This document shows, piece after piece, positions 4,723 through 62,480 of a DNA stretch of 64,000 bases (within the stretch, counting starts at the first letter, position 1; each line of letters starts with the position of its first letter). The position numbers and the translations under genes are program-made. Source of the stretch: Parcubacteria group bacterium (GTDB lineage: Bacteria; Patescibacteriota; Minisyncoccia; Moranbacterales; UBA9337); contig JBAZSW010000005.1 of assembly GCA_041662245.1 (NCBI GenBank), positions 57,837-121,836 of the forward strand, given 5' to 3'. A model generated the notes under the pieces. The model was not told the DNA's origin. It saw only the letters and a list, made by a program, of their open reading frames with translations, and searched no databases.

Positions 4723-5067
4723 ATGAAAAAAACATTATCAAAATTTTTGGTATTGGGGCTATTTTTCCCTCTCATAACTTTGGCACAATGGACTAAGCCT
4801 ACCACGACTGGTTTACCGTCAAATACGATAAGTGCAATAGTAACCAATATAATGAATTGGCTTTTGATACTGTTAGGAGCTTTTGGAATAATTGGTTTCG
4901 TTGTTTCTGGAATTCTTTATTTGACAGCGGCAGGAAGAGATGACCAAATGGAATCAGCTAAAAAGGCAATGACTTGGTCTATTATTGGTGTGATTGTGGG
5001 TTTAATTGGACTGGTCATTATTACAGCAGCCGAAGCGATGCTGGGTGCAACTAGCGCTAGGTTTTAA
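4723..5067 (+). CDS. TrbC/VirB2-like T4SS pilin-like protein (paralog 4)
   Basis: Same architecture and motif (LYLTAAGRDDQMESAKKAMTWSI). Confidence 0.65.
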   Translation: MKKTLSKFLVLGLFFPLITLAQWTKPTTTGLPSNTISAIVTNIMNWLLILLGAFGIIGFVVSGILYLTAAGRDDQMESAKKAMTWSIIGVIVGLIGLVIITAAEAMLGATSARF

Positions 5068-5108
5068 AGATTTCTACGAAATTTGTTTATTTTTTTACAC
5101 TTTAAATT

Positions 5109-5462
5109 ATGATGATTAAAAAGACATCATTAAAAATATTTAGTTTTTTTGTTTTAACGCTGCCAATGTTAGTGTCGGCTCAATACACAGCGCCAAAAGA
5201 CACGAAACTTCCCACAGGAGAATTAGCCACTATTATAACTAATATAATGAATTGGCTACTGGTAATTTTGGGAGTAATTGGAGTAATTGGTTTTGTTATT
5301 GCAGGAATTTTTTATTTAACAGCGGCGGGAAATGATGATCAAATAAGTACAGCTAAAAAGGCGATGACTTGGTCGGTTGTGGGGGTAATTGTGGGGTTAG
5401 TAGGTTTGGTAATTATTACAGCTGTTGAAACAATGTTGGGCGGGACTGATCCTAAATTTTAA
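5109..5462 (+). CDS. TrbC/VirB2-like T4SS pilin-like protein (paralog 5)
   Basis: Same architecture and motif (FYLTAAGNDDQISTAKKAMTWSV). Confidence 0.65.
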   Translation: MMIKKTSLKIFSFFVLTLPMLVSAQYTAPKDTKLPTGELATIITNIMNWLLVILGVIGVIGFVIAGIFYLTAAGNDDQISTAKKAMTWSVVGVIVGLVGLVIITAVETMLGGTDPKF

Positions 5463-5475
5463 TTTTAATTAATAT

Positions 5476-5874
5476 ATGAAAAATAAATTTGCTATATTTT
5501 TTTTATTGCTAGGATTGGTTTTTTTTGCTGGAAAAGTTTTAGCTGTGACTTGTCCCAGCTCAGGGAGTTGGGATAGTTCGTCGGGAGTCTGCATTCCTAA
5601 TAATACTGGATTACCTTCTCCAGGAGGAGATAGCCCTTTGGCAACTGTAATTAATAATGTAATGAAGTGGCTGCTTCTTATAGTAGGATCTATAGCTATC
5701 ATTGCTTTTGTGATTTCGGGTATTCAATATTTAACTTCTGCGGGAGATCAAAATGCAATTGAAAACGCCAAACGAAATATGTGGTGGTCGATTGTGGGAG
5801 TAGTAGTTGCTCTAATAGGGATGATAATTCTTAATTTTGTTTTTACGACTATTTTGGGTGGGTCTTCTTCGTAA
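5476..5874 (+). CDS. TrbC/VirB2-like T4SS pilin-like protein (paralog 6, with an extra Cys-containing N-terminal segment)
   Basis: Signal peptide; CPSSGSWDSSSGVC; QYLTSAGDQNAIENAKRNMWWSI. Confidence 0.6.
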   Translation: MKNKFAIFFLLLGLVFFAGKVLAVTCPSSGSWDSSSGVCIPNNTGLPSPGGDSPLATVINNVMKWLLLIVGSIAIIAFVISGIQYLTSAGDQNAIENAKRNMWWSIVGVVVALIGMIILNFVFTTILGGSSS

Positions 5875-5928
5875 AGTTAATTAATCTGAATTTAAGTTTA
5901 TTTTAAATAATATAAATAAAATATTAAA

Positions 5929-6564
5929 ATGAAAATTTTAAATTTTAAAAAAATAATAGCCAGTTTTCTGATGAGTATTTTTATATTTTGTGGTTCCTTT
6001 AATTTAGCTTTAGCGGCTTGTGCTACAGGAACTACGGCTAGTGGAAATATTTGTTTTGAAAACCCTTTGTCTTATAATACCGTAGATGGAATTTTAAGCG
6101 CGCTTCTTATTCATTTACAGGGGATAATCGTGGTAATTTCGATGGTTTTTATTGTGATCGGAGCTATCCTTTATATGACTTCAGCTGGAGATGAAGGAAA
6201 AATGAAAATAGCTAAAGGAGCAATTTTTGCGGCGGTGATCGGACTGGCGATTGGAATCGCGGCGCCATCATTTTTAAAAGAAATTTATACTGCCTTAGGA
6301 AAAAGTACTAGTGATAGTCTTATTTCTTCTGCTCCAGATCTGGCTACAATTGCACTTAATGTCCTTAACTTTTTGCTTAGCGTTACAGGAGTGATTGGAA
6401 TTATAATGTTGGTAGCAGCAGGAATAGCCTATATGACCGCAGCTGGAAATGAAGGTCAAATTGAAACAGCTAAAAAAATGACTACTTGGGCAATTATTGG
6501 AATTGCAGTAGCTTTGGGAGCTTTGGTAATAGTTCAACAAGTGGCTAAATTTTTCTCTACATAG
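5929..6564 (+). CDS. Tandem two-domain TrbC/VirB2-like pilin-like protein (paralog 7, internal duplication)
   Basis: Two successive TM-loop-TM modules: LYMTSAGDEGKMKIAKGAIFAAV and AYMTAAGNEGQIETAKKMTTWAI. Confidence 0.6.
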   Translation: MKILNFKKIIASFLMSIFIFCGSFNLALAACATGTTASGNICFENPLSYNTVDGILSALLIHLQGIIVVISMVFIVIGAILYMTSAGDEGKMKIAKGAIFAAVIGLAIGIAAPSFLKEIYTALGKSTSDSLISSAPDLATIALNVLNFLLSVTGVIGIIMLVAAGIAYMTAAGNEGQIETAKKMTTWAIIGIAVALGALVIVQQVAKFFST

Positions 6565-22537: not shown

Positions 22538-22933
22538 ATGGAAAACAAAAAAGAAAAAATAAAATCATTTACTGATTTAAACGCTTGGAGAGAAGGACAT
22601 AAGTTGGTTTTAGAAATTTATAATATAACGAAACTATTTCCTGAAGATGAGAGATTTGGTTTAATTTCTCAGATGAGAAGATGTGCAGTTTCTATAACAT
22701 CAAATATCGCAGAGGGTTTTAGCCGTAAGGGTATGAAGGAAAAAATTCAGTTTTATCATATATCTCTTGGATCTATAACAGAATTGCAAAATCAGCTATT
22801 GATCTGTAGAGATTTAAAAATTTTAGATAATGATAAATTTAAAAAAATAGCCCAGCAGACGACGCTGGTACAAAAAATTACCAACGGATTAATCAAGTCA
22901 ACAAAATATATGAATTCTGAATTTAATTCATAA
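22538..22933 (+). CDS. Four-helix-bundle protein (23S rRNA intervening-sequence protein family), copy 1
   Basis: AW..GHKLVLEIY..T..FP..ERFGLISQMRRCAVSITSNIAEGF.R. Flanked by the inverted repeat tgaattaagaatta. Confidence 0.85.
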   Translation: MENKKEKIKSFTDLNAWREGHKLVLEIYNITKLFPEDERFGLISQMRRCAVSITSNIAEGFSRKGMKEKIQFYHISLGSITELQNQLLICRDLKILDNDKFKKIAQQTTLVQKITNGLIKSTKYMNSEFNS

Positions 22934-24018: not shown

Positions 24019-24408
24019 GTGTTTAGAAATATGGGAAATGAAAAGATAAAGGATTTTACAGACTTAATCGTTTGGAAAGAGGGACATAAATTGGTATTAA
24101 TGATTTATGATGCTACAAATAACTTTCCTAAAAATGAAAGATTTGGTTTAGTTTCTCAGATGAGGAGATGCGCAGTTTCCATTACATCTAATATTGCAGA
24201 AGGATTTGGAAGAAAAGGATACAAAGAGAAACTGCAATTTTATTATGTGTCATCAGGATCGCTTAGCGAATTGAAAAATCAGACTTTAATTGCTAAAGAT
24301 GTAAAATATTTATCCGAAAAATCTTTTATTGATATTATGCAACGAGCTGATTCTACGCACAAACTTTTAAATTTATTTATATCGAAAACAAAAACATTTG
24401 TATCTTGA
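24019..24408 (+). CDS. Four-helix-bundle protein (23S rRNA IVS protein family), copy 2
   Basis: LIVWKEGHKLVLMIY...RFGLVSQMRRCAVSITSNIAEGFGRKG. Confidence 0.85.
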   Translation: MFRNMGNEKIKDFTDLIVWKEGHKLVLMIYDATNNFPKNERFGLVSQMRRCAVSITSNIAEGFGRKGYKEKLQFYYVSSGSLSELKNQTLIAKDVKYLSEKSFIDIMQRADSTHKLLNLFISKTKTFVS

Positions 24409-26622: not shown

Positions 26623-27000
26623 ATGGAAAAGGAAGAATTTAAAAAAATGTTAAAATTAAGAGCCTTCAATCTGGCTCGAAATATAATGAAATTAACAGAT
26701 AGATTTCCTCAAAAAAGATCTGCTTGGGTAATAGCTGATCAATTACTTCGTTCCGCCACTAGTATTGGAGCCAATATAATAGAGGCACAAGCGGCCAGTT
26801 CAAAAAGAGATTTTATAAATTTTTTAAACCATGCACTAAAGAGTGGCAATGAAACCAAATTTTGGTTGGCATTAGCTAAAGATTTGGATGATAAATTAGT
26901 TCCAGAAATAGAAAAACAACTCAAAGAAACTGATGAGCTAGTAAGAATACTAGGTTCTAGCATAACAACTTTAAAAGGTAAGAAAACTTTGAATTGTTAA
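26623..27000 (+). CDS. Four-helix-bundle protein (23S rRNA IVS protein family), copy 3 (divergent)
   Basis: AFNLARNIMKLTDRFP...QLLRSATSIGANIIEAQA. Flanked by an inverted gtgcaaaattaaaagttgcaa / tgcaaagttaaaaatta. Confidence 0.75.
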   Translation: MEKEEFKKMLKLRAFNLARNIMKLTDRFPQKRSAWVIADQLLRSATSIGANIIEAQAASSKRDFINFLNHALKSGNETKFWLALAKDLDDKLVPEIEKQLKETDELVRILGSSITTLKGKKTLNC

Positions 27001-32386: not shown

Positions 32387-32420
32387 TTAGCACTCGCTCT
32401 TGACGAGTGCTAATTTTTTG
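32387..32420 (+). terminator. Rho-independent terminator
   Basis: ttagcactcg ctcttga cgagtgctaa ttttttg. Confidence 0.8.
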
Positions 32421-32505
32421 TTATAATTAAATTGTAACAGTTATAAAGTTCATAAAGTTTTTAAAGTTGTAAGGTTTGTAAAGTTGAGAAAACTATATTA
32501 TAGAC

Positions 32506-33252
32506 ATGAATAAACGACAAGAAAAAATCTTAGAGTGCATCGTGGAAGAGTATACTTCGACCGCTGTTCCGATTGGCTCTAAAATTTTAGTAGAAAAATA
32601 TGGTATAGATGCCAGTAGCGCCACAATTAGAAATGAGATGGCGGAATTGGAAGAATTGGGTTATTTATATCAACCCCACATTAGTGCGGGTAGAATCCCA
32701 ACTGATAAGGGTTATCGTTATTTTGTGGAAGAATTAATGAAAGATAAAGAATTAAGCAAGAGAGAACAACTGAAGTTACAAGAGGAATTATTGAAATTGA
32801 AAGCTAAAAATATGCGACTTTCCAGAACGAGCGCAAAATTACTTTCAGGTATTACAGGTAATCTGGCAATTAGCGGAATATTAGACAAAGATGAATTTGA
32901 TGATTTTGGAATGAGTGATTTATTAAGTGAACCTGAGTTTCAGAAATTGGATGAAATCTGCCGTTTGACAGAAACAATGGATTATATTGATGAGATGTTT
33001 GATAAAATTGTAAAAGAAATTAAAGAAGGGGAAACGAAAATATTTATCGGCTTAGAAAACCCTGTTAGCAAAATTTCTAGTTGTTCAATGATTGTTTCGC
33101 CCTATAAATTAAAAAATGGCCAGCAAGGGGTGCTAGCCTTGATTGGTCCGAAAAGAATGAAGTATGCCAAAAATAAATCATTAATAGAATATATTAAGAA
33201 GATAGTAGGAGGAGCGAGTGCTGTAGTGTTGATAGCTTATACCTTGACTTAA
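32506..33252 (+). CDS. hrcA: Heat-inducible transcription repressor HrcA (short form)
   Basis: N-terminal wHTH RQEKILECIVEEYTSTAVPIGSKIL...SSATIRNEM. Position before grpE-dnaK. Confidence 0.8.
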   Translation: MNKRQEKILECIVEEYTSTAVPIGSKILVEKYGIDASSATIRNEMAELEELGYLYQPHISAGRIPTDKGYRYFVEELMKDKELSKREQLKLQEELLKLKAKNMRLSRTSAKLLSGITGNLAISGILDKDEFDDFGMSDLLSEPEFQKLDEICRLTETMDYIDEMFDKIVKEIKEGETKIFIGLENPVSKISSCSMIVSPYKLKNGQQGVLALIGPKRMKYAKNKSLIEYIKKIVGGASAVVLIAYTLT

Positions 33253-33326: not shown

Positions 33327-34232
33327 ATGAAAAAGGAAAATAAAAAAGAAGAAATAGAAGAAAAAGGATGGTCGATGCAATTGACCGTCAAGGCTGTAGT
33401 TGTAGATAAAGATGGAAAAATTCTCTTGCTCAAAAGAGCTGACAAGGAAGTAACTAATGGTGCTAAATATGACTTGCCTGGTGGAGGAATTGAAAAGGGA
33501 GAGAATGTAAAAAATTCACTAAAAAGAGAATTATTAGAAGAGCTTGGATTAGACAATATAGAAATTGGAGCAGTTATTAGAATAAGTGAATATCCAGAAG
33601 GTCATAAAAAAATGGATGAACTGAAAGCAATTAGATTTATCGCCTATTACAACGGTGGAGAAATAAAATTAAATCCCCGCGAGCATAGCGGATATGAGTG
33701 GCTAAATTTTGAGGAAGCGATAAAAAAATTAAACACTGGCGATGGGTTTGAAGAAGAAAAAATGGAGACCATCAAAGAAGCACAAAAATATTTATTGATG
33801 CAGGAGTCTTTAGATGGGTGGAAGAGAAGTTTGGCAGAATTTGAAAATTATAAAAAGATGCAAGCCGAAAGCCAAAAAGATAGAATTCGTTATGCGACTG
33901 AAAATATTGTGATGCAGATTATACCCGTCATCGATAACTTCCAAACTTCGACTGCGCACATTCCCGAAGATCAAAAAGATAATCCCTGGGTGACTGGTAT
34001 AATGTATATTCAAAAGCAGCTGGAAAACGTACTGGTAGAAAATGGGGTAGAAGAAATTAATTTAAAAGTTGGAGATAATTTTGATACTAAATATTGTGAG
34101 GCGGTACTCGATAATGAATGTGATGAATGTAAGGATAAGGAAAAATATAAGAATAAGATTAGCAAAGTTATTTTAAAAGGTTATAAAATTGGAGATAAAG
34201 TGATTCGAGCAGCGCGAGTAATTGTAAAATAA
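33327..34232 (+). CDS. grpE: NUDIX hydrolase-GrpE fusion protein (nucleotide exchange factor GrpE with an N-terminal Nudix domain)
   Basis: Nudix box GGGIEKGENVKNSLKRELLEELGL within residues 1-145. GrpE motifs FENYKKMQAE...IIPVIDNF...GVEEI...FDTKYCEAV...KGYKIGDKVIRAARV at residues 165-301. One continuous ORF. Confidence 0.8.
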   Translation: MKKENKKEEIEEKGWSMQLTVKAVVVDKDGKILLLKRADKEVTNGAKYDLPGGGIEKGENVKNSLKRELLEELGLDNIEIGAVIRISEYPEGHKKMDELKAIRFIAYYNGGEIKLNPREHSGYEWLNFEEAIKKLNTGDGFEEEKMETIKEAQKYLLMQESLDGWKRSLAEFENYKKMQAESQKDRIRYATENIVMQIIPVIDNFQTSTAHIPEDQKDNPWVTGIMYIQKQLENVLVENGVEEINLKVGDNFDTKYCEAVLDNECDECKDKEKYKNKISKVILKGYKIGDKVIRAARVIVK

Positions 34233-34498
34233 AAAACCACCCTCTAAGAGATTGCTCTAAGGCGAGGGCGGTTATGCGGGGGGGATAAGAAGAGGAAGAG
34301 CTGGTAGTTGAATGTTTTTTAGGAGGTGATATAGGGGTGGAGAGAAGTTTCTCTCCGAAAAATAATTCAACTTACCAGCTACTAAAAGATTAGACTATTT
34401 ATATTAAAAAGTCAAGTAATAATTAATAATTAAAATAAGTAATAAAGATTTTAGCTAATTATAACCAAAAAACTAATCAGCTAAAAACTAAAAAAAAT

Positions 34499-36415
34499 AT
34501 GGGTAAAATATTAGGAATTGATCTGGGAACTACTAATAGTGCGATGGCAATTGTTTCGGGCGGTAAGCCAGAAATAATTGAAAACAAGGAGGGAAATCGA
34601 ACCACTCCTTCAATGATAGCAGTCAATAAAGGTGGAGAAAGATTGGTGGGATTACTTGCTAAACGTCAAGCAGTAACTAATCATGAAAATACTTTGTTTT
34701 CAATCAAGAGATTGATTGGAAGAAAGTTTGATGATAAAGATGTTCAAGAGGACATTAAATTGATGCCGTTTAAAATTTCCAAAGCATCAAATGGTGGTAT
34801 CAATGTAAAAATGGGAGATAAAGAATATACCCCGCGAGAAATTTCCGCGATGGTACTGCAAAAACTTAAAGCGGATGCGGAAGAAAAATTGGGAGAAAAA
34901 ATTGAAGAAGCGGTAATTACTGTGCCAGCATATTTTGATGATTCTCAAAGAAAAGAAACTAAAGAAGCTGGAGAAATCGCAGGGCTAAAAGTAAAGAGAA
35001 TTATTAATGAACCTACGGCGGCCGCTTTGGCTTACGGATTTGATAAAAAGAAAAATGAAAAAATTGCTGTTTATGATTTGGGAGGAGGAACTTTTGATAT
35101 TAGTATTTTGGAAGTGGGAGATGATACCGTGGAAGTAATCAGCACCAATGGAGACACCCATTTGGGAGGAGATGATTTTGATCAGGTTCTTATCAATTGG
35201 ATTATTGACGAATTTAAAAAGCAAGAAGGGATTGATTTAGGAAAAGATAATTTGGCTTTGCAAAGAATTAAAGAATCGGCCGAAAAAGCCAAAATTGAAC
35301 TTTCTACTGCTCAAGAAACAGAAATTAATCAACCTTTCATAACTACTGATGCCAACGGTCCGAAACATTTAGTAATGAAACTAACTCGCTCCAAAATGGA
35401 AGAATTGGTGGGAGATTTGGTAATTAAAACCATGGAGCCAGTTAAAAAAGCTCTCAAGGATGCTAAGCTGGAAACCAAAGATATTAATGAAATCGTGATG
35501 GTAGGAGGAATGACTCGTATGCCACTTGTCCAAAAGAAAGTAGAGGAATTTTTTGGCAAGAAACCTAATTCTAGTGTAAATCCTGACGAAGTAGTGGCGA
35601 TGGGCGCAGCCATTCAAGGTGGGGTATTAGCCGGTGATGTAAAAGATGTATTGCTACTTGATGTAACACCACTAACACTGGGAATTGAAACAATGGGAGG
35701 TGTGTCTACAGCTTTGATTGAAAGAAATACAACTGTACCAACCAAAAAATCTCAAATTTTTTCTACGGCGGCCGATAATCAACCTAGTGTGGAAATTCAT
35801 GTGCTTCAAGGAGAAAGAGAAATGGCAGAGGGTAATAAAACCTTAGGAAGATTTATTTTAGATGGTATCGCACCGTCTCCTCGAGGAATTCCGCAAGTGG
35901 AGGTAACTTTTGATATTGATGCTAATGGAATTTTAAGTGTGAGTGCTAAAGATAAAGCAACTGGCAAAGAGCAATCAATTCGAATTGAAGCGTCTAGCGG
36001 AGTGAGTAAAGAAGAAATTGAAAGAATGAAACAGGATGCGCAGGTACATGCCGAAGAAGATAAAAAACGCAAAGAAAAAGTAGAGGCTAAAAATATTGCC
36101 GAGAGTCTAGTGTACTCCACGGAAAAAGCCCTGAAAGATTCTGGGGATAAAATTAGTGAAGATAAAAAGAAGCCAGTAATTGAAAAAATGGAAGCCTTAA
36201 AAGAAGTTCTAAAGAAAGAAGAATCAACTACGGAAGATATAAAGAAGGCAACAGAAGAATTTTCGACTGAAGCACAAAAGATTGGTGAAGAACTTTATAA
36301 AGCGGCACAACCTACACCAGAAGCTTCCGCCTCCGCTGAAGCTACGGGCGAGACGAAGGAAGATAATGTGAAGGATGCGGAGACTGAACCAAAAAAGGAT
36401 GAGGATAAAAAATAA
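34499..36415 (+). CDS. dnaK: Molecular chaperone DnaK (Hsp70)
   Basis: [21 protein letters not shown] and [11 protein letters not shown] signatures. Confidence 0.95.
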
Positions 36416-36422
36416 ATAACTA

Positions 36423-36449
36423 AACGGGAGTTCTTGCTCCCGTTTTTTT
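36423..36449 (+). terminator. Rho-independent terminator after dnaK
   Basis: aaacgggag ttcttg ctcccgttttttt. Confidence 0.8.
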
Positions 36450-51718: not shown

Positions 51719-52180
51719 ATGATTTGTCCAGCCTGTAATCATCCTGATACAAAAGTGGTTGATTCTCGCGATACCAACGAAGGCAAAGCTATCCGAAGAC
51801 GAAGAGAATGCGAGAAATGCAAGACCAGATTTAGCACTTATGAGGAAATAGAAATTATGAGACTTCTGGTGATAAAGAGAAATGGAGAAAAAGAAGAATA
51901 TAATCAGGAAAAAATAATAAAGGGAATCGAAAAGTCTCTGGAAAAGAGACCTGTCAATCAGGAAAAAAAAGAAAAGTTAGTAAATGAAATAGAATACCAA
52001 GTGCACATTAAAAGTAAGCAAGGTGAGATAGCTAGCAAAGAAGTGGGAAAAATAATTTTAGATAAGCTTAAGGAGATTGATGATGTAGCTTATTTGAGGT
52101 TTGCTAGCGTATATAAATCCTTTGGTAGTTTAAATAGTTTTAAAAAAGAACTAGAAAAGTTAGAAGAAGAAGAAAAATAA
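51719..52180 (+). CDS. nrdR: Transcriptional repressor NrdR
   Basis: Zn-ribbon MICPACNHPDTKVVDSR...RRRECEKC plus an ATP-cone domain. Confidence 0.9.
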   Translation: MICPACNHPDTKVVDSRDTNEGKAIRRRRECEKCKTRFSTYEEIEIMRLLVIKRNGEKEEYNQEKIIKGIEKSLEKRPVNQEKKEKLVNEIEYQVHIKSKQGEIASKEVGKIILDKLKEIDDVAYLRFASVYKSFGSLNSFKKELEKLEEEEK

Positions 52181-52235: not shown

Positions 52236-54365
52236 TTGGCGAGACAAGAAAAAAATAAAAATATGACTCAAAAGAAAAAAATAACAAATGAAGGAAAAGG
52301 GGTAGAAAAGAAACAAGAAGCTCAAAAAATAGTTGCTAAAATTATTAAAAGGAGTGGTAAGGTAGTTCCTTTTAGTGAAGAAAAAATAGTCAAAGCTGTT
52401 TTTAAAGCGTTCAAAGAGACTGAGGAGGGAGATTTGAAGGATGCCGAGAAAGTGGCCAAAAAAGTAACTCAACTTTTAAGCAAAAGTTTTCGTAAAGGTT
52501 ATGTACCAGAGATTGAAGAGATTCAAGATACGGTAGAAAAAGTTTTGATGATATTGGATTTTGAGGTAACTGCTAAAGCTTATATTCTTTATCGCGAACA
52601 ACATCGCAAAGTGCGAGAAACGGAAGAAGTTTTGGATGAGGCTGTAAGTTTGGTAGATAAATATATTGACGAATCAGATTGGCGAGTTAAGGAAAATTCT
52701 AATATGGGGTTTTCGTTGCAGGGTTTAAATAATTTTATCTCTTCGGCAGTTAGCGCTAAATATTGGATGAACAAGGTTTACACCAAAAATATTCGAGATG
52801 CTCATGAAGATGGAGATTTGCATGTACATGATTTGCAAATGGTGGCCGCGTATTGCTGTGGATGGGATTTGCATGATCTATTGATTAGGGGTTTTGGTGG
52901 AGTTCCTGGAAAAGTTCATTCTGGACCAGCTAAACATTTTCGAAGTGCGCTGGGACAAATGGTGAATTTTATTTATACTTTGCAGGGTGAAGCTAATGGC
53001 GCACAGGCTTTTGCTAATTTTGATACATTGTTGGCTCCTTTCGTTTATTACGACAAATTAAATTATAAAGAAGTGAAACAGGCTATCCAAGAATTTGTTT
53101 TCAATATGAATGTTCCGACTCGAGTGGGGTTCCAAACACCTTTTTCTAATATTACTTTAGATTTACAAGTACCTTCTAACTATAAAGATGAAGCTGTAAT
53201 TATTGGAGGAAAACCTTTAAGAAAGAAATATGGATCTTTCCAAAAAGAGATGAATATGATTAATCGAGCTTTTGCAGAAGTGATGAGCAAAGGTGATTCT
53301 CAAAACAGGGTATTTACTTTTCCGATTCCCACCTACAATATTTCTAAAGATTTTAATTGGGAGGATAAGGCGTTGGAGCCAGTTTGGGAAATGACCGCTA
53401 AATATGGGATGCCTTATTTTGCTAATTTTATTAATTCTGATATGAGTCCTGATGATGCTAGAAGTATGTGTTGTCGACTTAGGTTGGATAATCGTGAATT
53501 ACAAAGAAGGGGTGGAGGACTTTTTGGCGCCAATCCTATGACTGGTTCAATCGGGGTGGTGACTATTAATATGCCAAGAATCGGATATTTGGCAAAAGAT
53601 AAAAAAGATTTTTTTAGCAGATTGGATAAATTGATGGATATTGCCAAAGAAAGCTTAGAACTAAAAAGAGTTTTTATAGAAAAACTAACGGAAGCGGGAT
53701 TATATCCATATTCTAGATATTATTTAAGAGATATTAAAATGAGAAGGGGTGCATATTGGGGCAATCATTTTTCTACTATAGGGCTTTTGGGGATGAATGA
53801 GGCATTATTAAATCTTTTTGGAAAAGGAATTGCAACTAAGGAAGGAAATCTTTTTGCGCAGAAAGTTTTAGATCATATGCGAAGCAAAATGATTAAGTAC
53901 CAAAAAGAGACTGGCAATATGTATAATTTGGAAGCTACTCCCGCTGAAGGGACCACTTATCGCTTAGCAAATTTAGATAGAAAAAAATTCCCTGAAATAA
54001 TTTTTGCTAATAATGAATCAGTTAAAGCGGGAGCTGCTGAACCATATTATACCAATTCTTCTCAACTGCCAGTGGGTTATACTAGCGATATTTTTGAAGC
54101 TTTGGATCTACAAGACAATCTTCAAACTAAATATACTGGAGGAACAGTATTGCATGGATTTTTAGGTGAAAAGATTAATGATATAGAAGTGGTTAAAAAT
54201 TTGGTAAGAACTATTGCAACCAAGTATGCTCTTCCTTATTTCACTTTTACTCCGACCTTTAGCATTTGTCCGGAACACGGATATATAGCAGGGGAGCATC
54301 ATACCTGCCCAAAATGTAAAATAGCTATGAAAAAAGAAGATGTAAAGTTCGAGAAGGTGAGATAA
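52236..54365 (+). CDS. nrdD: Anaerobic ribonucleoside-triphosphate reductase, catalytic subunit (class III RNR); ends at the Zn-ribbon and lacks the glycyl-radical motif. The start may be the ATG at 52263.
   Basis: N-terminal ATP-cone. Conserved class III core. The C-terminus ...SICPEHGYIAGEHHTCPKC stops before any RVxG[YF] motif. Confidence 0.85.
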   Translation: MARQEKNKNMTQKKKITNEGKGVEKKQEAQKIVAKIIKRSGKVVPFSEEKIVKAVFKAFKETEEGDLKDAEKVAKKVTQLLSKSFRKGYVPEIEEIQDTVEKVLMILDFEVTAKAYILYREQHRKVRETEEVLDEAVSLVDKYIDESDWRVKENSNMGFSLQGLNNFISSAVSAKYWMNKVYTKNIRDAHEDGDLHVHDLQMVAAYCCGWDLHDLLIRGFGGVPGKVHSGPAKHFRSALGQMVNFIYTLQGEANGAQAFANFDTLLAPFVYYDKLNYKEVKQAIQEFVFNMNVPTRVGFQTPFSNITLDLQVPSNYKDEAVIIGGKPLRKKYGSFQKEMNMINRAFAEVMSKGDSQNRVFTFPIPTYNISKDFNWEDKALEPVWEMTAKYGMPYFANFINSDMSPDDARSMCCRLRLDNRELQRRGGGLFGANPMTGSIGVVTINMPRIGYLAKDKKDFFSRLDKLMDIAKESLELKRVFIEKLTEAGLYPYSRYYLRDIKMRRGAYWGNHFSTIGLLGMNEALLNLFGKGIATKEGNLFAQKVLDHMRSKMIKYQKETGNMYNLEATPAEGTTYRLANLDRKKFPEIIFANNESVKAGAAEPYYTNSSQLPVGYTSDIFEALDLQDNLQTKYTGGTVLHGFLGEKINDIEVVKNLVRTIATKYALPYFTFTPTFSICPEHGYIAGEHHTCPKCKIAMKKEDVKFEKVR

Positions 54366-55019: not shown

Positions 55020-55718
55020 ATGAATATTGCCAGTTTTCAAAAATTTACACTATTGGATTATCCGGGGCATATCGCTACAACTGTTTTTACTGTGGGTTGT
55101 AACTTTCGTTGCTCTTTTTGTCATAACCCTGAACTAGTACTTAGCTCGCAATTTATGGTTCACAGCAATAATAATGAAAAAGATTTTTTTAAGTTTTTAA
55201 AAGAAAGAGCCGGCAAATTAGAGGCAGTCTGTATTACGGGGGGTGAGCCAACCTTGCAAAAGGATTTATTGGATTTTATGTCTAAGGTAAAAAAAATGGG
55301 ATATTTAGTAAAATTGGATACTAACGGTATGCGCCCTGATGTTTTAAAAAAAGCACTGGATTCAAAAATTGTTGATTATGTGGCGATGGATATAAAAAAT
55401 TCTCTTAAAAACTATGAAAAAACAGTATGTACGAAAGTGGACCTAGAAAGAATAAAAATGAGTGTGGAATTGATAAGAAATAGCAAAGTTGATTATGACT
55501 TTCGTACTACCGTGGTTCCTGGAATTCATAAGGAAAAAGATTTTCAAGATATCGCTCTTTGGATTGGCGGAGCAAAAAAATATTTTTTACAAAGATTTAG
55601 GGATATTAAAACATTAGATCCCGCATTAAAAGATAAAACCAGAGGGAAAAAGTTAGACTTAGAAAAAATTAAAAAGAAAATTGAAAAACATTTTGGAGAA
55701 GTAGGAATAAGGGGGTAA
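55020..55718 (+). CDS. nrdG: Anaerobic ribonucleoside-triphosphate reductase activating protein (radical SAM)
   Basis: CNFRCSFCHNP radical-SAM cysteine motif and a glycine-rich SAM site ITGGEPTL. Confidence 0.85.
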   Translation: MNIASFQKFTLLDYPGHIATTVFTVGCNFRCSFCHNPELVLSSQFMVHSNNNEKDFFKFLKERAGKLEAVCITGGEPTLQKDLLDFMSKVKKMGYLVKLDTNGMRPDVLKKALDSKIVDYVAMDIKNSLKNYEKTVCTKVDLERIKMSVELIRNSKVDYDFRTTVVPGIHKEKDFQDIALWIGGAKKYFLQRFRDIKTLDPALKDKTRGKKLDLEKIKKKIEKHFGEVGIRG

Positions 55719-59092: not shown

Positions 59093-59578
59093 TTGCAGTT
59101 CAAAATTCAAAATTATTTGTTAAATCATATGAACAAAAAGGAACAAAAACCAGGCAAAGATTATATCGGGGTAGGCGGAGGAGTTTTGATTTTTAATGAC
59201 AAGAAAGAGATCCTACTTTTAAAAAGAACAAATAAGACTAGAAATGAAGCGGGATATTGGGAGAAGCCGGGGGGAATGGTTGGTTACAATGAGAAAGCGA
59301 TTATTGCTATGAAGAGAGAAATAAAGGAAGAAGTTAATTTAAATATAAATATTTGGGGTTATCTCCCTCACACTGATCACATAATGAAAAGAGAAGGACA
59401 GCACTGGGTAGCCTTCAATTATTTGGCTAGTGTAAAATCAGGTGAGTTTAAAAATATGGAGCCGCACAAACACGATGAAGTGAAATGGTTTACTCTAGAT
59501 AAATTACCTAAAAAAATTAGTCAAACAACTAGAGAATCAATTAAGAATTATAGGGAGAAAAAATATATTAAAATTTAA
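59093..59578 (+). CDS. NUDIX hydrolase
   Basis: Nudix box GGMVGYNEKAIIAMKREIKEEVNL. Confidence 0.8.
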   Translation: MQFKIQNYLLNHMNKKEQKPGKDYIGVGGGVLIFNDKKEILLLKRTNKTRNEAGYWEKPGGMVGYNEKAIIAMKREIKEEVNLNINIWGYLPHTDHIMKREGQHWVAFNYLASVKSGEFKNMEPHKHDEVKWFTLDKLPKKISQTTRESIKNYREKKYIKI

Positions 59579-59668
59579 AGATGATGCAAATGTGCAAATG
59601 AATGCAAATACTGCGAATAGAGGTTAATTCCTAAATTCTTATATTCCTAAATTCTTAAAAACAAATAC

Positions 59669-59989
59669 ATGAAAAAATACTACGAAGCTATCCAAAAGTT
59701 CCACGCGAAACATAAAATGAAAGGGACCAATAATGAAGAGATGACTTTTCGTTTGAATTTAATGACGGAAGAATTGGGAGAATTGGCGCAAGCCGTGACG
59801 AAAGGAAAACCTAAAAAAGAATTTATTGAAGAAAATGTAGATTTATTTAATTTAATAATTGGAAATTTAATCAGTACGGACGTAACGCTGGAAGAATTTG
59901 ATAAGGCTTTTTGGGAAAAGAATAAAAAAATAATGGAACGAAAGAAAAGAAAAGTGAATGGGAAGTTTAGAGTTTCAGAATTTAAATAA
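59669..59989 (+). CDS. MazG-like nucleotide pyrophosphohydrolase (all-alpha NTP-PPase)
   Basis: EE.GEL..A motif (MTEELGELAQAV) and a 106-aa size typical of the MazG/dCTP-PPase-like family. Confidence 0.6.
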   Translation: MKKYYEAIQKFHAKHKMKGTNNEEMTFRLNLMTEELGELAQAVTKGKPKKEFIEENVDLFNLIIGNLISTDVTLEEFDKAFWEKNKKIMERKKRKVNGKFRVSEFK

Positions 59990-59994
59990 AAATT

Positions 59995-60047
59995 CAAGTC
60001 TAGTCATCGCATTAGCTAAAACCGAGCTCGCGAGGTTTTAGATGACG
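59995..60047. repeat. REP-like palindromic repeat, copy 1 (caagtctagtcatcgcattaKctaaaaccgagctcgcgaggttttagatRacgt)
   Basis: Second copy at 63119-63171 with 2 mismatches. An 8-bp stem ctaaaacc/ggttttag encloses a self-complementary GAGCTCGCGAG. Confidence 0.8.
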
Positions 60048-60195
60048 TATCCTCGATGTTTGAAGTCCTGTCGCTCGAGAGCGACGGGATTTGGGTGGGG
60101 CGAAAATATATTTTTTTTGTTTCTTTATTCTTGACTTTTTAAAGCGTTGTGATAATGTTGTGAAAAATGTAAAATTACTAAAAAGGAGGATAATA

Positions 60196-60402
60196 ATGTA
60201 CAAACGGGTACTGCTTTGGCACATATACGGTAACAAAGGCTCTTTCAAAAATGTTGTTACTTACTTTGAAGGAGGAATCAACGAACTGCAATATTACATT
60301 GAAAGAAATGAAACGTTATTATTTGAACAAGTTGAATTAGCACTAAAAGATGGGGAAAAAGTAGATAGGGCAGTGCTTCATCAAATAGAAAACCCAGAAT
60401 GA
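60196..60402 (+). CDS. Small hypothetical protein (68 aa)
   Basis: The strong RBS aaaaggagga precedes the ATG, and a terminator follows. Confidence 0.5.
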   Translation: MYKRVLLWHIYGNKGSFKNVVTYFEGGINELQYYIERNETLLFEQVELALKDGEKVDRAVLHQIENPE

Positions 60403-60455
60403 AGAAATAAAATTTTTATTTTCACGTACCAGATATTGAGTGTTACGTGTAATAT

Positions 60456-60494
60456 CCCTTGCTATAATCTTCGGATTAAGCAAGGGCTTTTTTA
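60456..60494 (+). terminator. Rho-independent terminator
   Basis: cccttgc tataatcttcggattaa gcaaggg ctttttta. Confidence 0.75.
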
Positions 60495-60554
60495 TTTGGA
60501 TTAAGCATTGCATTTGTGGGAAAATTTTGGGCGGGTTAATTCTTCAGACTGCCG

Positions 60555-61190
60555 TTAATCTAAAGAATTATATTCTTCCTTCCATTCAATGTTGCCTTTA
60601 TCAAATTCAGCTTTTAATTTTCTTTTTACGATTTTCAACATTTCTGACAATTCTGGAAACAATTTTACAGATTTATTTGCATAATTAGCAATAAATTCTG
60701 GTTTATCATATATCTTGTATCCACTTTCTGCTAATTGAGTTAGTGTCTCAATTTTGTCTAATGCTTTTACGAATTTTGCTTCACTGGTTTTGCAATTATT
60801 ATATTCATGCCACAAATCTGAAATCTCTTTCCCAATAACTTCCGGAAGAGTCTCTTGCAATTTAATAATCGCTCCAATTTCTTGCTTTTCTTTTTCGTCT
60901 TTAGAAAATTTACCTTCTGCAATTAAAATGGCATCGATATCCCCAGTCAGAGCTTCAGCGAGATCATGCACTAAAGCAATTTTTATTGCTTTATTTACAT
61001 CAATATCTAATTTTAATTCATCTGCGATTATGAAAGTAATTAATGCCAATCTCCAAGAGTGCTCAGCAGTTGATTCTTTTCTTCCAGAAGTTGTTTTATT
61101 ATACCTTAAAGTAGATTTCAGATTTTCAATTTTATGCAGAAAGTTAAATATTTTTTCTAAGTTTCCAGAATTGTTTGTTGTCATATTCAT
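60555..61190 (-). CDS. HD-domain phosphohydrolase (YfbR-like 5'-deoxynucleotidase family)
   Basis: HSWRLALI...VHDLAEALTGDI His/Asp metal-binding pattern of the HD superfamily. Confidence 0.75.
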   Translation of the reverse strand: MNMTTNNSGNLEKIFNFLHKIENLKSTLRYNKTTSGRKESTAEHSWRLALITFIIADELKLDIDVNKAIKIALVHDLAEALTGDIDAILIAEGKFSKDEKEKQEIGAIIKLQETLPEVIGKEISDLWHEYNNCKTSEAKFVKALDKIETLTQLAESGYKIYDKPEFIANYANKSVKLFPELSEMLKIVKRKLKAEFDKGNIEWKEEYNSLD

Positions 61191-61256
61191 TTGATAAAGG
61201 CTGAATTATATAAATTTTTATTGTGCAGGTGGTCGTAGGGTAATTTCATTTAACGT

Positions 61257-61451
61257 TTAGAAATATTTGAAGTTGTGTCCGTGTTTATTGGCAAAAACTT
61301 CAAATTCTTGCCTATCTGCTTTGATTGTATCACTAAACCTTGTCTTATCATAGCGCAATTTGGGTGTAGTGAAGGGAAATTTAATAAATAATTTTCCTTG
61401 TTGTTTTAGCTCTTTTGAAATTTTTGAAAAGTTACCTAGACAAATGATCAA
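61257..61451 (-). CDS. Small hypothetical protein (64 aa); a decayed partial copy lies at 63867-63940
   Basis: ORF. A 72-bp segment is repeated near the window end and carries a stop codon there. Confidence 0.35.
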   Translation of the reverse strand: MIICLGNFSKISKELKQQGKLFIKFPFTTPKLRYDKTRFSDTIKADRQEFEVFANKHGHNFKYF

Positions 61452-61548
61452 TATTATGCTTTACTTAATCAATACCGTAAGTTCTTTTTTGGAGCATGGG
61501 TAGGTCTAAATCATAAAACCTCAAACAATCAGAAGGGGGGATACTCTA

Positions 61549-61722
61549 ATGTGTGATGTCAAAATAACGATCACTATTAAAGACGCCGACAAAGAAGGAT
61601 GGAAATGTGATGGGTGCGGTAAAATTACCACCAATGAACCCGTAGATGACGAAGGAGGACAATACTGTTTTTGTACTTGGCAATGTGCATTGAGATGGGA
61701 GAATAAACGAGACCGAGATTAA
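61549..61722 (+). CDS. Small Cys-rich protein (57 aa, CDGC...CFCTWQC); absent from the ORF track
   Basis: RBS agaaggggggata precedes the ATG. Translation is MCDVKITITIKDADKEGWKCDGCGKITTNEPVDDEGGQYCFCTWQCALRWENKRDRD. The annotated antisense ORFs here are probably shadows. Confidence 0.45.
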   Translation: MCDVKITITIKDADKEGWKCDGCGKITTNEPVDDEGGQYCFCTWQCALRWENKRDRD

Positions 61723-62125
61723 GGCAGGGATTAATAATTTCCCCAGCAAGCCTGTTTAGAAATAAAAATTCTGCAGGCTTTTTTCTTTTTAAAAAGATTG
61801 AAAAAGGGGCTGTCAAAAAATAAAATTTCAGCTAACGTTTTCGAGTATGCGAAGTTCACTTTTCGGATTTATTGATTATTACTTGAATTATCTGATTACT
61901 ATTTTAGCTGAATACTTGGTGTTAGGCGAGGGTGAGTGGAATGGAGTAGAGCGAAAGCGTAGCATCCCCGTAGCGTTTTTTCAAATTATTTTTTGTGGGC
62001 TTGACAGATAAACCTTTACCTGTTATACTAAGATGTCAATAGTTGTGAAATCGTTATTAACCCAAAGGGGTGGTTCTCGCTATTGCGAGGATCTGCTCTT
62101 TTACAAAATCTTGAAGGAGGACAAA

Positions 62126-62344
62126 ATGTCCAAAAAATGGAAATTGAATATCGGATGTCATTGCAAAACACTAATGAGCCGTGATTTAGATGTCCGGGAG
62201 CACGACTCCCTTGAAGATTGCAAGCGCGACGTCAAGGAATCAGAGGAGTTTTGGGCAAGAATGGGATATTGTGTGTGGTTTGCTAAAGCTATTGGACCTG
62301 ACGGCGAGAAAGTGGAGCTACACAAAGACACCCCGTTCTATTAA
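62126..62344 (+). CDS. Small hypothetical protein (72 aa, CHC motif)
   Basis: RBS gaaggagg precedes the ATG at 62126, and a terminator follows. Confidence 0.45.
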   Translation: MSKKWKLNIGCHCKTLMSRDLDVREHDSLEDCKRDVKESEEFWARMGYCVWFAKAIGPDGEKVELHKDTPFY

Positions 62345-62368
62345 AAAGAGCAGATCCGGTTCACTCGT

Positions 62369-62399
62369 AAGGCGTTGACTACAAAGTTGACGCCTTTTT
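62369..62399 (+). terminator. Rho-independent terminator
   Basis: aaggcgttgac tacaaa gttgacgcc ttttt. Confidence 0.6.
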
Positions 62400-62480
62400 C
62401 CTTAATGTAAAAATATAATTGTAGGAAATTTTTGAACCAGATATTCTTTGTTATCGGATGTAATTTTAAAATCTCGTGTT

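What the first reader, a model, noticed from the sequence alone, without database searches (positions are those of the whole stretch)
33327..34232. GrpE carries an N-terminal NUDIX hydrolase domain within the hrcA-grpE-dnaK operon
A single uninterrupted 301-aa ORF contains a canonical Nudix box (GGGIEKGENVKNSLKRELLEELGL, residues ~52-75) within a ~145-aa Nudix fold. A GrpE nucleotide-exchange domain follows (FENYKKMQAE, IIPVIDNF, GVEEI, FDTKYCEAV, KGYKIGDKVIRAARV). GrpE normally has an unstructured N-terminus and a long paired helix. Replacing that N-terminus with a nucleotide-diphosphate hydrolase would couple ADP or nucleotide hydrolysis to DnaK nucleotide exchange, which is unusual. The window also contains two further stand-alone NUDIX genes plus MazG-like and HD hydrolases.
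Basis: seen in the sequence. Interest (0 to 1): 0.6.

Follow-up and report, generated by a model that had tools for sequence, protein, structure and literature searches.

The report
Nudix hydrolase fused to GrpE
In a group of tiny uncultured bacteria (Moranbacteria/Parcubacteria), the co-chaperone GrpE carries a Nudix nucleotide-hydrolase domain, with its catalytic residues conserved, in place of its usual floppy N-terminal tail; the fusion is real and inherited, but its purpose is untested.

Summary
ORF 33327-34232 (+) encodes a 301-aa protein. It has a Pfam NUDIX domain (aa 19-136, E 1e-18) with a perfect Nudix box (aa 53-75), followed by an almost full-length GrpE domain (aa 143-300, E 1e-33).

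It is not an assembly or frameshift artefact. The 120 best database homologues all carry both domains, down to 42% identity, and all 120 keep the catalytic Glu/Arg core. The two halves diverge together. The gene sits in a classic CIRCE/HrcA heat-shock operon: CIRCE, hrcA, nudix-grpE, dnaK.

The Nudix domain replaces only the disordered N-terminal tail; the long GrpE helix is kept. That places the Nudix domain at the far tip of the coiled coil, away from the DnaK nucleotide cleft. Direct coupling of ADP hydrolysis to exchange is therefore unlikely.

Close relatives have plain GrpE, so the Nudix domain is dispensable for GrpE function. Two species carry a nucleotidyltransferase-fold domain at the same position instead.

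The nearest Nudix relatives are small MutT/NudG/NudI/BdRppH-type enzymes, and the substrate is unknown. My best reading is a bifunctional, heat-shock-regulated protein: a GrpE exchange factor plus an independent nucleotide pyrophosphohydrolase. I found no paper describing it. It is a new variant of a known kind, of moderate interest.

The parts
32387..32413 (.). CIRCE operator (HrcA binding site), TTAGCACTC-N9-GAGTGCTAA, a perfect match
   Evidence: 0 mismatches, with 0.01 matches expected by chance. A CIRCE-like site lies upstream of grpE in 27/28 Nudix-fused loci and 22/23 other loci (21 plain, 2 nucleotidyltransferase-fused).
32400..32427 (+). Sigma-70-like promoter TTGACG-16-TATAAT (with TG) overlapping CIRCE
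   Evidence: 11 of 12 consensus positions match. This is a consensus match only.
32506..33252 (+). hrcA (short form, 248 aa), the heat-shock repressor
   Evidence: Pfam HrcA C-terminal domain E 2.9e-20; the HrcA DNA-binding domain is weak (E 0.003).
33327..34232 (+). nudix-grpE fusion gene (301 aa)
   Evidence: P0001 is a 100% identical database entry, annotated only as 'nucleotide exchange factor GrpE'.
33327..33374 (+). aa 1-16, a Lys/Glu-rich N-terminal tail predicted to be disordered
   Evidence: pLDDT below 50 for residues 1-15.
33375..33734 (+). Nudix fold domain (aa 17-136)
   Evidence: Pfam NUDIX E 1.2e-18. The AF2 model shows strands and helices over aa 17-135 with high pLDDT. Foldseek best hit is 3grn, E 2e-12, TM 0.82 normalised to the target.
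33483..33551 (+). Nudix box, aa 53-75 (GX5EX7REUXEEXGU), the catalytic and metal-binding motif
   Evidence: G52, G53, E59, R67, E68 and E72 are invariant and E71 is at least 90% conserved in 30 homologues. The core motif is kept in 120/120 homologues.
33735..33956 (+). Short linker (aa 137-139) followed by the long GrpE helix (aa 140-210 in the monomer model)
   Evidence: helix 140-210. The GFExEK helix start is conserved. E. coli GrpE residue 48 aligns to aa 151.
33753..34226 (+). GrpE domain (aa 143-300): long helix, helical bundle and C-terminal beta domain
   Evidence: Pfam GrpE E 9.9e-34, HMM positions 17-163 of 165. PDB sequence hits are 4ani, 3a6m, 1dkg and 8gb3. P200, D203, G224, G285, Y286 and R294 are invariant.
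34233..34498 (+). Structured grpE-dnaK intergenic spacer (two hairpins); its function was not determined
   Evidence: MFE -66.6 kcal/mol, z-score -4.5. There is no Rfam hit. The second hairpin is kept in L001 with changes on both arms.
34499..36415 (+). dnaK (638 aa)
   Evidence: Pfam HSP70 E 2.5e-256, full length.
36422..36445 (+). Terminator-like hairpin with a T-run after dnaK

Best explanation
This is a genuine two-domain protein inherited by descent in Moranbacteria/Parcubacteria (Patescibacteria). It combines a complete GrpE nucleotide-exchange factor with an N-terminal Nudix pyrophosphohydrolase domain of the small MutT/NudG/NudI/BdRppH type. That domain keeps the full catalytic motif and takes the place of GrpE's usual disordered tail. 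The gene is transcribed from a CIRCE/HrcA-controlled promoter together with hrcA and dnaK, so both activities should be induced by heat or proteotoxic stress. I propose the following mechanism. The GrpE part dimerises through its long helices and opens the DnaK nucleotide-binding domain in the normal way. The two Nudix heads sit side by side at the far (N-terminal) tip of the coiled coil. There they act as an independent Mg2+-dependent hydrolase on a nucleotide-derived compound, such as a damaged or surplus (d)NTP, or a dinucleoside polyphosphate. The benefit of the fusion would be stress-linked co-expression in fixed stoichiometry, plus scaffolding by the GrpE dimer, and not channelling of DnaK-released ADP. 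Shown here: the ORF, both domains, conservation of the catalytic residues and of GrpE residues that align with E. coli positions I recall as DnaK contacts, co-divergence of the two halves, the operon and CIRCE, and dispensability of the Nudix domain in close relatives. Inferred: catalytic activity, substrate class, dimer geometry, and independence from the DnaK cycle.
For: Both Pfam domains score well above their thresholds. The Nudix box is perfect. All of the 120 best homologue clusters carry both domains. G52, G53, E59, R67, E68 and E72 are invariant in 30 sequences, and 120/120 keep the core motif.

Pairwise identities of the Nudix and GrpE halves correlate (r = 0.53; Mantel test, 0 of 999 permutations reach it). 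The nearest Nudix relatives in 1.8 billion representative proteins are other GrpE fusions or truncated copies of them. These results argue for one old fusion that is inherited vertically.

GrpE positions that align with E. coli P97, D100, G122, G177-Y178 and R186 are invariant in the family. The AF2 model gives a GrpE-like layout of long helix, helix and beta domain. PDB sequence hits are GrpE structures 4ani, 3a6m, 1dkg and 8gb3.

A perfect CIRCE element and an overlapping promoter precede hrcA, and a terminator follows dnaK. CIRCE lies upstream in 27/28 fused loci.

Of the 51 closest species-representative loci, 21 have plain GrpE with a charged disordered tail and no Nudix ORF within about 6 kb. 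No DnaK residue or length change tracks the fusion.

The nearest solved or curated Nudix relatives are 3grn (MutT-related), NudI, BdRppH, NudG and MutT.

The window holds a separate cluster of Nudix, MazG-like and HD genes. A different nucleotide-handling domain, with a nucleotidyltransferase fold, occupies the same GrpE position in L043 and L046. Its stand-alone copies sit among nucleotide-salvage genes.
Against: No activity has been measured, and the substrate is unknown. No NCBIfam Nudix equivalog reaches its cutoff.

The linker between the Nudix domain and the helix is short and conserved. This hints at a fixed orientation and possibly a functional interaction with DnaK's substrate-binding side, which pure co-expression does not require.

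Retention over a wide clade, plus Nudix-Nudix-GrpE variants, suggests selection for the physical link itself.

The geometric argument rests on solved GrpE-DnaK structures recalled from my own knowledge, not on a model of this complex.

The neighbour-joining tree used to infer losses is rough.

I could not test whether these genomes hold a second, canonical grpE.
Confidence: 0.6

Rival explanations
1. Alarmone link. The Nudix domain is a dinucleoside-polyphosphate (Ap4A/NpnN) hydrolase. GrpE holds it on the DnaK machine so that it removes a heat-shock alarmone that binds and inhibits DnaK. Its activity may be switched by the temperature-sensitive GrpE helices.
For: Foldseek hits include Ap4A/Ap6A hydrolases and E. 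coli RppH bound to Ap4A (4ijx, 1ktg, 3i7u, 1vc8, 7sp3, 4mpo, 9cxx), with E-values of about 1e-9 to 1e-8. The PDB sequence search hits the Chlamydia Ap4A hydrolase CT771 at E 1e-6. A review (PMC10148737) reports that Ap4A rises on heat shock, cross-links to DnaK, GroEL and ClpB in E. coli, and is degraded by Nudix enzymes. The operon is heat-shock regulated.
Against: The best sequence and fold matches are MutT-, NudI-, NudG- and BdRppH-like proteins, not Ap4A hydrolases. Close relatives do without the domain. There is no DnaK co-variation. No subfamily signature was established.
Confidence: 0.15
2. The Nudix domain hydrolyses ADP (or ATP/ADP-ribose) at DnaK, making nucleotide exchange directional.
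For: Both partners handle adenine nucleotides, and the fusion is conserved.
Against: The Nudix domain is attached at the N-terminal end of a retained long helix. In known complexes that end is the far end from the nucleotide cleft (my own knowledge of 1DKG and 4ANI). ADP-ribose pyrophosphatase is only a marginal hit (1v8i, E 9e-4). Plain GrpE suffices in sister species. DnaK is unchanged.
Confidence: 0.08
3. The Nudix domain is an RppH-like RNA 5'-pyrophosphohydrolase or decapping enzyme that changes mRNA decay during heat shock. It is fused to GrpE only for co-regulation.
For: BdRppH (3ees/3ffu) is among the top sequence and fold matches, and E. coli RppH structures follow.
Against: The NCBIfam RppH model scores 36.6 bits against a cutoff of 116. 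BdRppH-like proteins also hydrolyse free nucleotides. No RNA-binding feature was identified.
Confidence: 0.1
4. The Nudix domain is catalytically irrelevant. It serves as a structural cap, dimerisation module or ligand sensor that tunes the GrpE thermosensor helices or substrate release from DnaK, taking over the role of the disordered tail.
For: It occupies exactly the position of the tail, which in E. coli influences substrate release (my own knowledge). The linker is short and conserved. In four of the seven Nudix-Nudix-GrpE proteins checked, the distal Nudix copy has lost its box.
Against: The catalytic Glu/Arg residues of the GrpE-proximal Nudix domain are invariant across sequences of 42-100% identity. 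That is not expected for a purely structural domain.
Confidence: 0.05
5. Artefact: a sequencing or assembly error joined separate nudix and grpE genes.
For: None was found.
Against: The reading frame is continuous. The junction is conserved as protein sequence. The same architecture is found in all 120 best clusters and in 28 species-representative genomes from independent projects.
Confidence: 0.01

Closest known systems
Canonical bacterial GrpE (E. coli GrpE, PDB 1DKG; Geobacillus kaustophilus GrpE-DnaK, 4ANI; Thermus thermophilus, 3A6M; M. tuberculosis, 8GB3)
   Same: Both have a Pfam GrpE domain covering nearly the whole model. The predicted layout is long helix, helical bundle and beta domain. 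Positions that align with E. coli P97, D100, G122, G177-Y178 and R186 are invariant. The hrcA-grpE-dnaK operon has a CIRCE operator.
   Different: The disordered tail of roughly 30-60 aa is replaced by a folded Nudix domain of about 120 aa preceded by a 16-aa tail. The beta domain carries a variable Cys-rich insert. All lineage-specific NCBIfam GrpE equivalog models score below their cutoffs (best 81 bits against 137).
Small single-domain MutT-type Nudix hydrolases (M. mazei MutT-related 3GRN; NudI 6DT3/3OGA; NudG/ORF135 2RRK; Bdellovibrio BdRppH 3EES; Bartonella MutT 3HHJ)
   Same: The size is similar, the fold matches (TM 0.8 normalised to the target), the Nudix box is canonical, and sequence identity is 21-30%.
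   Different: Those proteins are stand-alone enzymes. Here the domain's C-terminal helix is followed after four residues by the GrpE coiled coil. No equivalog model reaches its cutoff, so substrate specificity cannot be transferred.
Multi-domain Nudix proteins (tandem Nudix-Nudix proteins; mycobacterial MutT1/Rv2985, a Nudix domain within a roughly 290-aa two-domain protein, 5GGC/9CXX; the PRK08999 family of 315-aa Nudix hydrolases)
   Same: The Nudix domain is used as a module joined to another domain. Of the 150 nearest representatives, 61 are tandem Nudix-Nudix proteins and 8 have three or four copies.
   Different: None of the solved or curated examples has a chaperone co-factor as the partner. 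In the top Foldseek PDB hits, no chain covers both halves of the model (query-normalised TM at most 0.40).
Nucleotidyltransferase-GrpE fusions in sister Moranbacteria (L043, L046, P0272)
   Same: They have the same GrpE clade, the same operon with CIRCE, and the same attachment point at the N-terminal end of the long helix. The added domain also handles nucleotides.
   Different: The added domain has a Pol-beta-type nucleotidyltransferase fold (TM1012/LnuA/ANT(2'')/MenT-like, with invariant S32, G34, D47 and D49), not a Nudix fold. It is rare as a fusion and is mostly a stand-alone protein of about 165 aa.

Membership tests
GrpE (Pfam PF01025), nucleotide-exchange factor of DnaK | Significant match to the GrpE profile over most of its length | tested here: met
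   E 9.9e-34, 116.8 bits against a cutoff of 25.8; aa 143-300 cover HMM positions 17-163 of 165.
GrpE (Pfam PF01025), nucleotide-exchange factor of DnaK | Architecture of long N-terminal helix, helical bundle and C-terminal beta domain | tested here: met
   The AF2 model (pLDDT 83) has helices at 140-210 and 220-238 and strands over 241-300. Sequence hits are to GrpE structures 4ani, 3a6m, 1dkg and 8gb3. The dimer itself was not modelled.
GrpE (Pfam PF01025), nucleotide-exchange factor of DnaK | Conservation of positions that are structural or DnaK-contact residues in E. coli (P97, D100, G122 which is the site of grpE280, G177-Y178, R186) | tested here: met
   P200, D203, G224, G285, Y286 and R294 are invariant in 30 homologues. 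The mapping uses an alignment to the E. coli sequence recalled from memory; it agrees with the 1dkg coordinates. The roles of the E. coli residues are from my own knowledge.
GrpE (Pfam PF01025), nucleotide-exchange factor of DnaK | Location in a dnaK operon under heat-shock control | tested here: met
   The order is CIRCE (perfect match), promoter, hrcA, this gene, dnaK, terminator. The same context is seen in related loci.
GrpE (Pfam PF01025), nucleotide-exchange factor of DnaK | NCBIfam GrpE equivalog score above the curated cutoff | tested here: not met
   the best model, PRK14140, scores 81.1 bits against a cutoff of 137. These are narrow lineage-specific models and none derives from Patescibacteria, so I do not take this as evidence against GrpE identity.
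GrpE (Pfam PF01025), nucleotide-exchange factor of DnaK | Acceleration of ADP release from DnaK | not testable with these tools
   This needs biochemistry.
Nudix hydrolase superfamily (Pfam PF00293) | Significant match to the NUDIX profile | tested here: met
   E 1.2e-18, 67.9 bits against a cutoff of 21.1, aa 19-136.
Nudix hydrolase superfamily (Pfam PF00293) | Nudix box GX5EX7REUXEEXGU with the catalytic Glu residues | tested here: met
   aa 53-75 match perfectly. E59, R67, E68 and E72 are invariant and E71 is at least 90% conserved. The core motif is kept in 120/120 homologues.
Nudix hydrolase superfamily (Pfam PF00293) | Alpha/beta/alpha sandwich Nudix fold | tested here: met
   Foldseek against the PDB gives 3grn at E 2e-12 with TM 0.82 normalised to the target. 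All 50 listed hits are Nudix hydrolases.
Nudix hydrolase superfamily (Pfam PF00293) | Mg2+/Mn2+-dependent pyrophosphohydrolase activity | not testable with these tools
   This needs an enzyme assay.
MutT / NudG / NudI (d)NTP pyrophosphohydrolase equivalogs | NCBIfam equivalog score above the cutoff | tested here: not met
   PRK10546 (NudG) scores 46.8 against 156, PRK15472 (NudI) 38.8 against 95, and PRK08999 54.8 against 245. The domain resembles these families but is not a member of any of them.
RppH RNA pyrophosphohydrolase | NCBIfam equivalog score above the cutoff | tested here: not met
   PRK00714 scores 36.6 bits against a cutoff of 116.
   Only a marginal hit was found (1v8i, E 9.4e-4, with no stretch passing on its own). 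No ADP-ribose pyrophosphatase appears among the 50 listed Foldseek hits.

The most novel reading that the evidence does not exclude
In this clade the N-terminal tip of GrpE is a docking site for nucleotide-modifying enzymes that act on the Hsp70 machine or its ligands. The enzymes are Nudix hydrolases in many species and a Pol-beta-type nucleotidyltransferase in others. For example, the Nudix head could destroy a stress nucleotide such as Ap4A or a damaged adenine nucleotide that blocks DnaK. The nucleotidyltransferase could make or attach such a nucleotide next to the DnaK substrate-binding domain. Under this reading the exchange factor would also edit the nucleotide signal that controls the chaperone.
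Probability: 0.15. Interest if true: 0.8.

Novelty: new variant of a known kind. Interest (0 to 1): 0.5.

Why it matters
GrpE is usually described as a simple exchange factor made of a disordered tail, a coiled coil and a beta domain, and I know of no GrpE with an enzymatic domain. Here a whole lineage has kept a Nudix hydrolase with intact catalytic residues welded to GrpE under heat-shock control. This is a natural 'Rosetta-stone' hint that nucleotide house-cleaning or alarmone turnover is tied to the Hsp70 stress response.

If the link is functional, it would give a direct experimental handle on an old open question: what stress nucleotides such as Ap4A do to DnaK. If it is only co-regulation, it still shows that the GrpE tail position tolerates whole enzymes. 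It also shows that genome annotation ('nucleotide exchange factor GrpE') hides a second activity in hundreds of Patescibacteria proteins.

Tried and rejected
1. Frameshift or assembly artefact. Rejected, because the fusion occurs in all 120 best independent clusters and the junction is conserved as protein sequence.

2. An internal start codon giving a separate GrpE. M146 has an A-rich upstream context like other genes here, but it is present only in the closest relatives and is Lys/Arg elsewhere. It is not a conserved feature.

3. A split version, with a separate Nudix gene next to grpE in unfused relatives. None was found within about 6 kb in the 21 plain loci.

4. Stand-alone close relatives of the fused Nudix domain. 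The apparent ones (P0126, P0130, P0131, P0134) carry the start of the GrpE helix and are truncated fusions.

5. DnaK residues or lengths that co-vary with fusion state. None was found; the largest frequency difference was 0.54 and lengths are the same.

6. Rfam search of the operon, including the structured grpE-dnaK spacer. No hit at E <= 1.

8. Assigning a substrate through NCBIfam equivalogs. All score below their cutoffs.

9. PDB sequence and NCBIfam searches on the L043/L046 N-terminal domain. Nothing significant was found. Its fold was identified only after structure prediction.

10. Literature. Four full-text searches found no paper on a Nudix-GrpE fusion.

11. Organism labels. Some record titles (Bdellovibrionales, Bathyarchaeia, Fimivivens) conflict with the sequence clustering. 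I treated them as binning or labelling noise and did not verify this.
Full report
**The observation**

The window (33.9% G+C) has one uninterrupted ORF on the + strand, from ATG 33327 to the stop at 34230-34232, encoding 301 aa. Pfam finds two domains well above their curated thresholds:
- NUDIX (PF00293), aa 19-136, E 1.2e-18.
- GrpE (PF01025), aa 143-300, E 9.9e-34, covering profile positions 17-163 of 165.

The Nudix box is aa 53-75, GGIEKGENVKNSLKRELLEELGL, a perfect match to GX5EX7REUXEEXGU.

**Not an artefact**

A search of about 5.8 billion clustered proteins gave 472 hits. All of the 120 best have both Pfam domains and lengths of roughly 280-340 aa, down to 42% identity. They come from independent NCBI, JGI, ENA and Logan assemblies. 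Where a source names them, they are labelled Moranbacteria, Parcubacteria or Pacebacteria and annotated only as GrpE. One cluster (P0001) is 100% identical to the window protein.

In an alignment of 30 homologues the junction region is conserved as protein sequence (GFExEKKxTxxxAKxYLEMKxSLxGWKR). A scan of one genome per GTDB species returned 80 GrpE loci. Of the 51 closest, 28 encode the Nudix-GrpE fusion.

**Both halves look functional**

*Nudix half.* G52, G53, E59, R67, E68 and E72 are invariant and E71 is at least 90% conserved. The core G-x5-E-x7-[RK]E-x2-[EDQ][ED] is present in 120 of 120 homologues.

*GrpE half.* P200, D203, N204, F205, G224, G285, Y286 and R294 are invariant. I aligned the protein to the E. 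coli GrpE sequence, which I recalled from memory; the result agrees with the 1dkg coordinates. In that alignment these positions fall on P97, D100, G122 (the grpE280 site), G177-Y178 and R186. The residue roles are from my own knowledge.

*Structure.* The AlphaFold2 model has mean pLDDT 83. It shows a disordered tail (aa 1-15), a Nudix fold (17-135), a four-residue linker, a long helix (140-210), a second helix (220-238) and a beta domain (241-300). Foldseek against the PDB gives only Nudix enzymes among the 50 listed hits (3grn, E 2e-12, TM 0.82 normalised to the target). No listed chain covers both halves of the model. The GrpE half hits GrpE structures 4ani, 3a6m, 1dkg and 8gb3 by sequence.

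**What the Nudix domain replaces**

The GrpE profile match begins at model position 17, and E. coli residue 48 aligns with aa 151. The long paired helix is therefore retained. Only the disordered tail, E. coli residues 1 to about 39, is replaced. Unfused sister proteins have exactly such a Lys/Glu/Asp-rich tail of 20-60 aa in front of the same YL(D/E)GWKRCQADFENYKK helix.

**Genomic context**

A perfect CIRCE operator, TTAGCACTC-N9-GAGTGCTAA, lies at 32387-32413; 0.01 matches are expected by chance. It overlaps a near-consensus promoter, TTGACG-16-TATAAT. The genes that follow are hrcA (32506-33252), the fusion gene, a 267-nt structured spacer, dnaK (34499-36415) and a terminator-like hairpin. 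CIRCE-like sites lie upstream of grpE in 27 of 28 fused loci and 22 of 23 other related loci. The fusion protein should therefore be part of the HrcA heat-shock regulon. No second GrpE is encoded in the 64-kb window.

**Evolution**

I searched the Nudix domain alone against 1.84 billion representative proteins. The best matches are other Nudix-GrpE or Nudix-Nudix-GrpE proteins. The few short 'stand-alone' top hits carry the start of the GrpE helix and are truncated fusions. After these come tandem Nudix-Nudix and single-domain proteins at 38% identity or less.

Pairwise identities of the Nudix and GrpE halves correlate across 113 fusions (r = 0.53; Mantel test, 0 of 999 permutations reach it). 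The Nudix half evolves faster, with mean identity 44% against 56% for GrpE. This supports one old fusion inherited vertically.

In a rough neighbour-joining tree of GrpE domains, the 21 plain GrpE proteins are interleaved with fused ones, although their GrpE part is 44-73% identical to the window's. None of those loci has a Nudix ORF within about 6 kb. The Nudix head has therefore been lost, or the alleles exchanged, repeatedly. It is not required for GrpE to work.

**A second head on the same position**

Two species (L043 and L046; the fragment P0272 is 100% identical over the part it shares with L046) carry a different domain of about 160 aa at the same position. Its stand-alone homologues are proteins of about 165 aa with no Pfam annotation. 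A high-confidence model (pLDDT 94) matches Pol-beta-type nucleotidyltransferases: TM1012, LnuA, ANT(2'')-Ia and MenT1. S32, G34, D47 and D49 are invariant. One stand-alone copy sits between adenylosuccinate lyase and dCMP deaminase, near HD-domain genes.

The window itself has a cluster of nucleotide-handling genes at 59-63 kb: Nudix, a MazG-like/PRA-PH ORF, an HD_3/YfbR-like gene, and a second Nudix. Both kinds of GrpE head therefore come from the pool of small nucleotide-handling enzymes in these genomes.

**Mechanism**

In solved GrpE-DnaK complexes (1DKG, 4ANI, 8GB3; from my own knowledge) the beta domain and the adjacent helices contact the nucleotide-binding domain. The N-terminal end of the long helices points away from it, toward the linker and substrate-binding domain. 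A head attached four residues before that helix is therefore tens of angstroms from the ADP site. This argues against channelling of released ADP.

Three further results point the same way:
- The head is dispensable in sister species.
- No DnaK residue or length change tracks the fusion state.
- The nearest Nudix relatives are MutT-related 3grn, NudI, BdRppH, NudG and MutT, not ADP-ribose pyrophosphatases.

The best-supported reading is a bifunctional protein. It is a normal GrpE dimer whose distal tip carries two independent, stress-induced Nudix pyrophosphohydrolase heads, which act on a nucleotide-derived compound. The substrate class cannot be decided here, because every NCBIfam Nudix equivalog scores below its cutoff.

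The most interesting alternative is a dinucleoside-polyphosphate (Ap4A) hydrolase tied to DnaK. Ap4A rises on heat shock, cross-links to DnaK in E. coli and is degraded by Nudix enzymes, according to the review PMC10148737. Several Ap4A hydrolases are also good fold matches. The short, conserved linker and the wide retention of the fusion leave room for such a functional link.

**Comparison with what is known, and novelty**

The protein passes the membership tests I could run for both GrpE and the Nudix superfamily. It is not a member of any curated Nudix subfamily. Four full-text literature searches found no description of a Nudix-GrpE fusion. Source annotations call it only GrpE. I rate it a new variant of a known kind: real, conserved, uncharacterised and moderately surprising, with a modest chance of revealing a direct link between stress nucleotides and the Hsp70 cycle.

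**Limits**
- There is no biochemistry.
- No dimer or complex model was available.
- The tree is only neighbour-joining.
- I could not test whether these genomes hold a second grpE.

Noticed in passing
L043:3156-4148 and L046:5479-6420 (also the fragment P0272): In two other Moranbacteria species GrpE carries a different N-terminal domain of about 160 aa in place of Nudix. It has a Pol-beta-type nucleotidyltransferase fold (Foldseek hits TM1012, LnuA, ANT(2'')-Ia and MenT1; S32, G34, D47 and D49 invariant). Stand-alone homologues of about 165 aa have no Pfam annotation. One sits between adenylosuccinate lyase and dCMP deaminase, near HD-domain genes.
   Followed up: partly
P0032, P0069, P0077, P0092, P0121, P0122, P0125; L031:5722-7275: Nudix-Nudix-GrpE variants of about 440-450 aa exist. 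The GrpE-proximal Nudix domain always keeps the catalytic box. The distal copy keeps it in three of the seven proteins checked and has lost it in four.
   Followed up: partly
window 34233-34498: The 267-nt grpE-dnaK spacer folds unusually well (MFE -66.6 kcal/mol, z-score -4.5). It has a hairpin right after the grpE stop and a long imperfect hairpin at about 34300-34380. The second hairpin is kept in L001 with changes on both arms. There is no Rfam match and it is not repeated elsewhere in the window. It could be an attenuator, a processing site or an RNA thermometer.
   Followed up: partly
window 34083-34140 (aa 253-271 of the fusion): A variable Cys-rich insert lies in the GrpE beta domain. 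The window protein has C256, C264 and C267. Relatives have CxxC or CCHDEEC...C patterns, and others have long Ser/Lys-rich inserts. A possible metal site was not examined.
   Followed up: no
window 59093-63041: A cluster of small nucleotide-handling genes: Nudix (59093-59578, +), a MazG-like/PRA-PH ORF (59669-59989, +), an HD_3/YfbR-like 5'-deoxynucleotidase (60555-61190, -) and a second Nudix (62481-63041, -). Upstream lie NrdR (51719-52180), a 709-aa ORF (52236-54365) that I did not scan but that could be an anaerobic ribonucleotide reductase, and a radical-SAM protein that could be its activase (55020-55718).
   Followed up: partly
window 3898-6564: Six consecutive small ORFs (114-211 aa) all match Pfam T4SS_pilin PF18895 (E 3e-8 to 2e-16). 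This is a tandem array of pilin paralogues.
   Followed up: no
window 22538-22933, 24019-24408, 26623-27000: Three paralogous ORFs match '23S rRNA-intervening sequence protein' PF05635 (four-helix-bundle, bAvd-like). They are interspersed among housekeeping genes.
   Followed up: no
window 32506-33252: HrcA is short here (248 aa), and its N-terminal winged-helix domain scores below the Pfam threshold (E 0.003). Even so, a perfect CIRCE element is present.
   Followed up: no
L004, L005, L010, L012, L013, L022, L036, L041, L045 (record titles): Several genomes carrying this Patescibacteria-type operon are titled 'uncultured Bdellovibrionales', 'Pseudobdellovibrionaceae', 'Bathyarchaeia archaeon' or 'Fimivivens sp.'. 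Their GrpE sequences cluster with Moranbacteria/Parcubacteria, so the labels look like binning or taxonomy-assignment errors.
   Followed up: no
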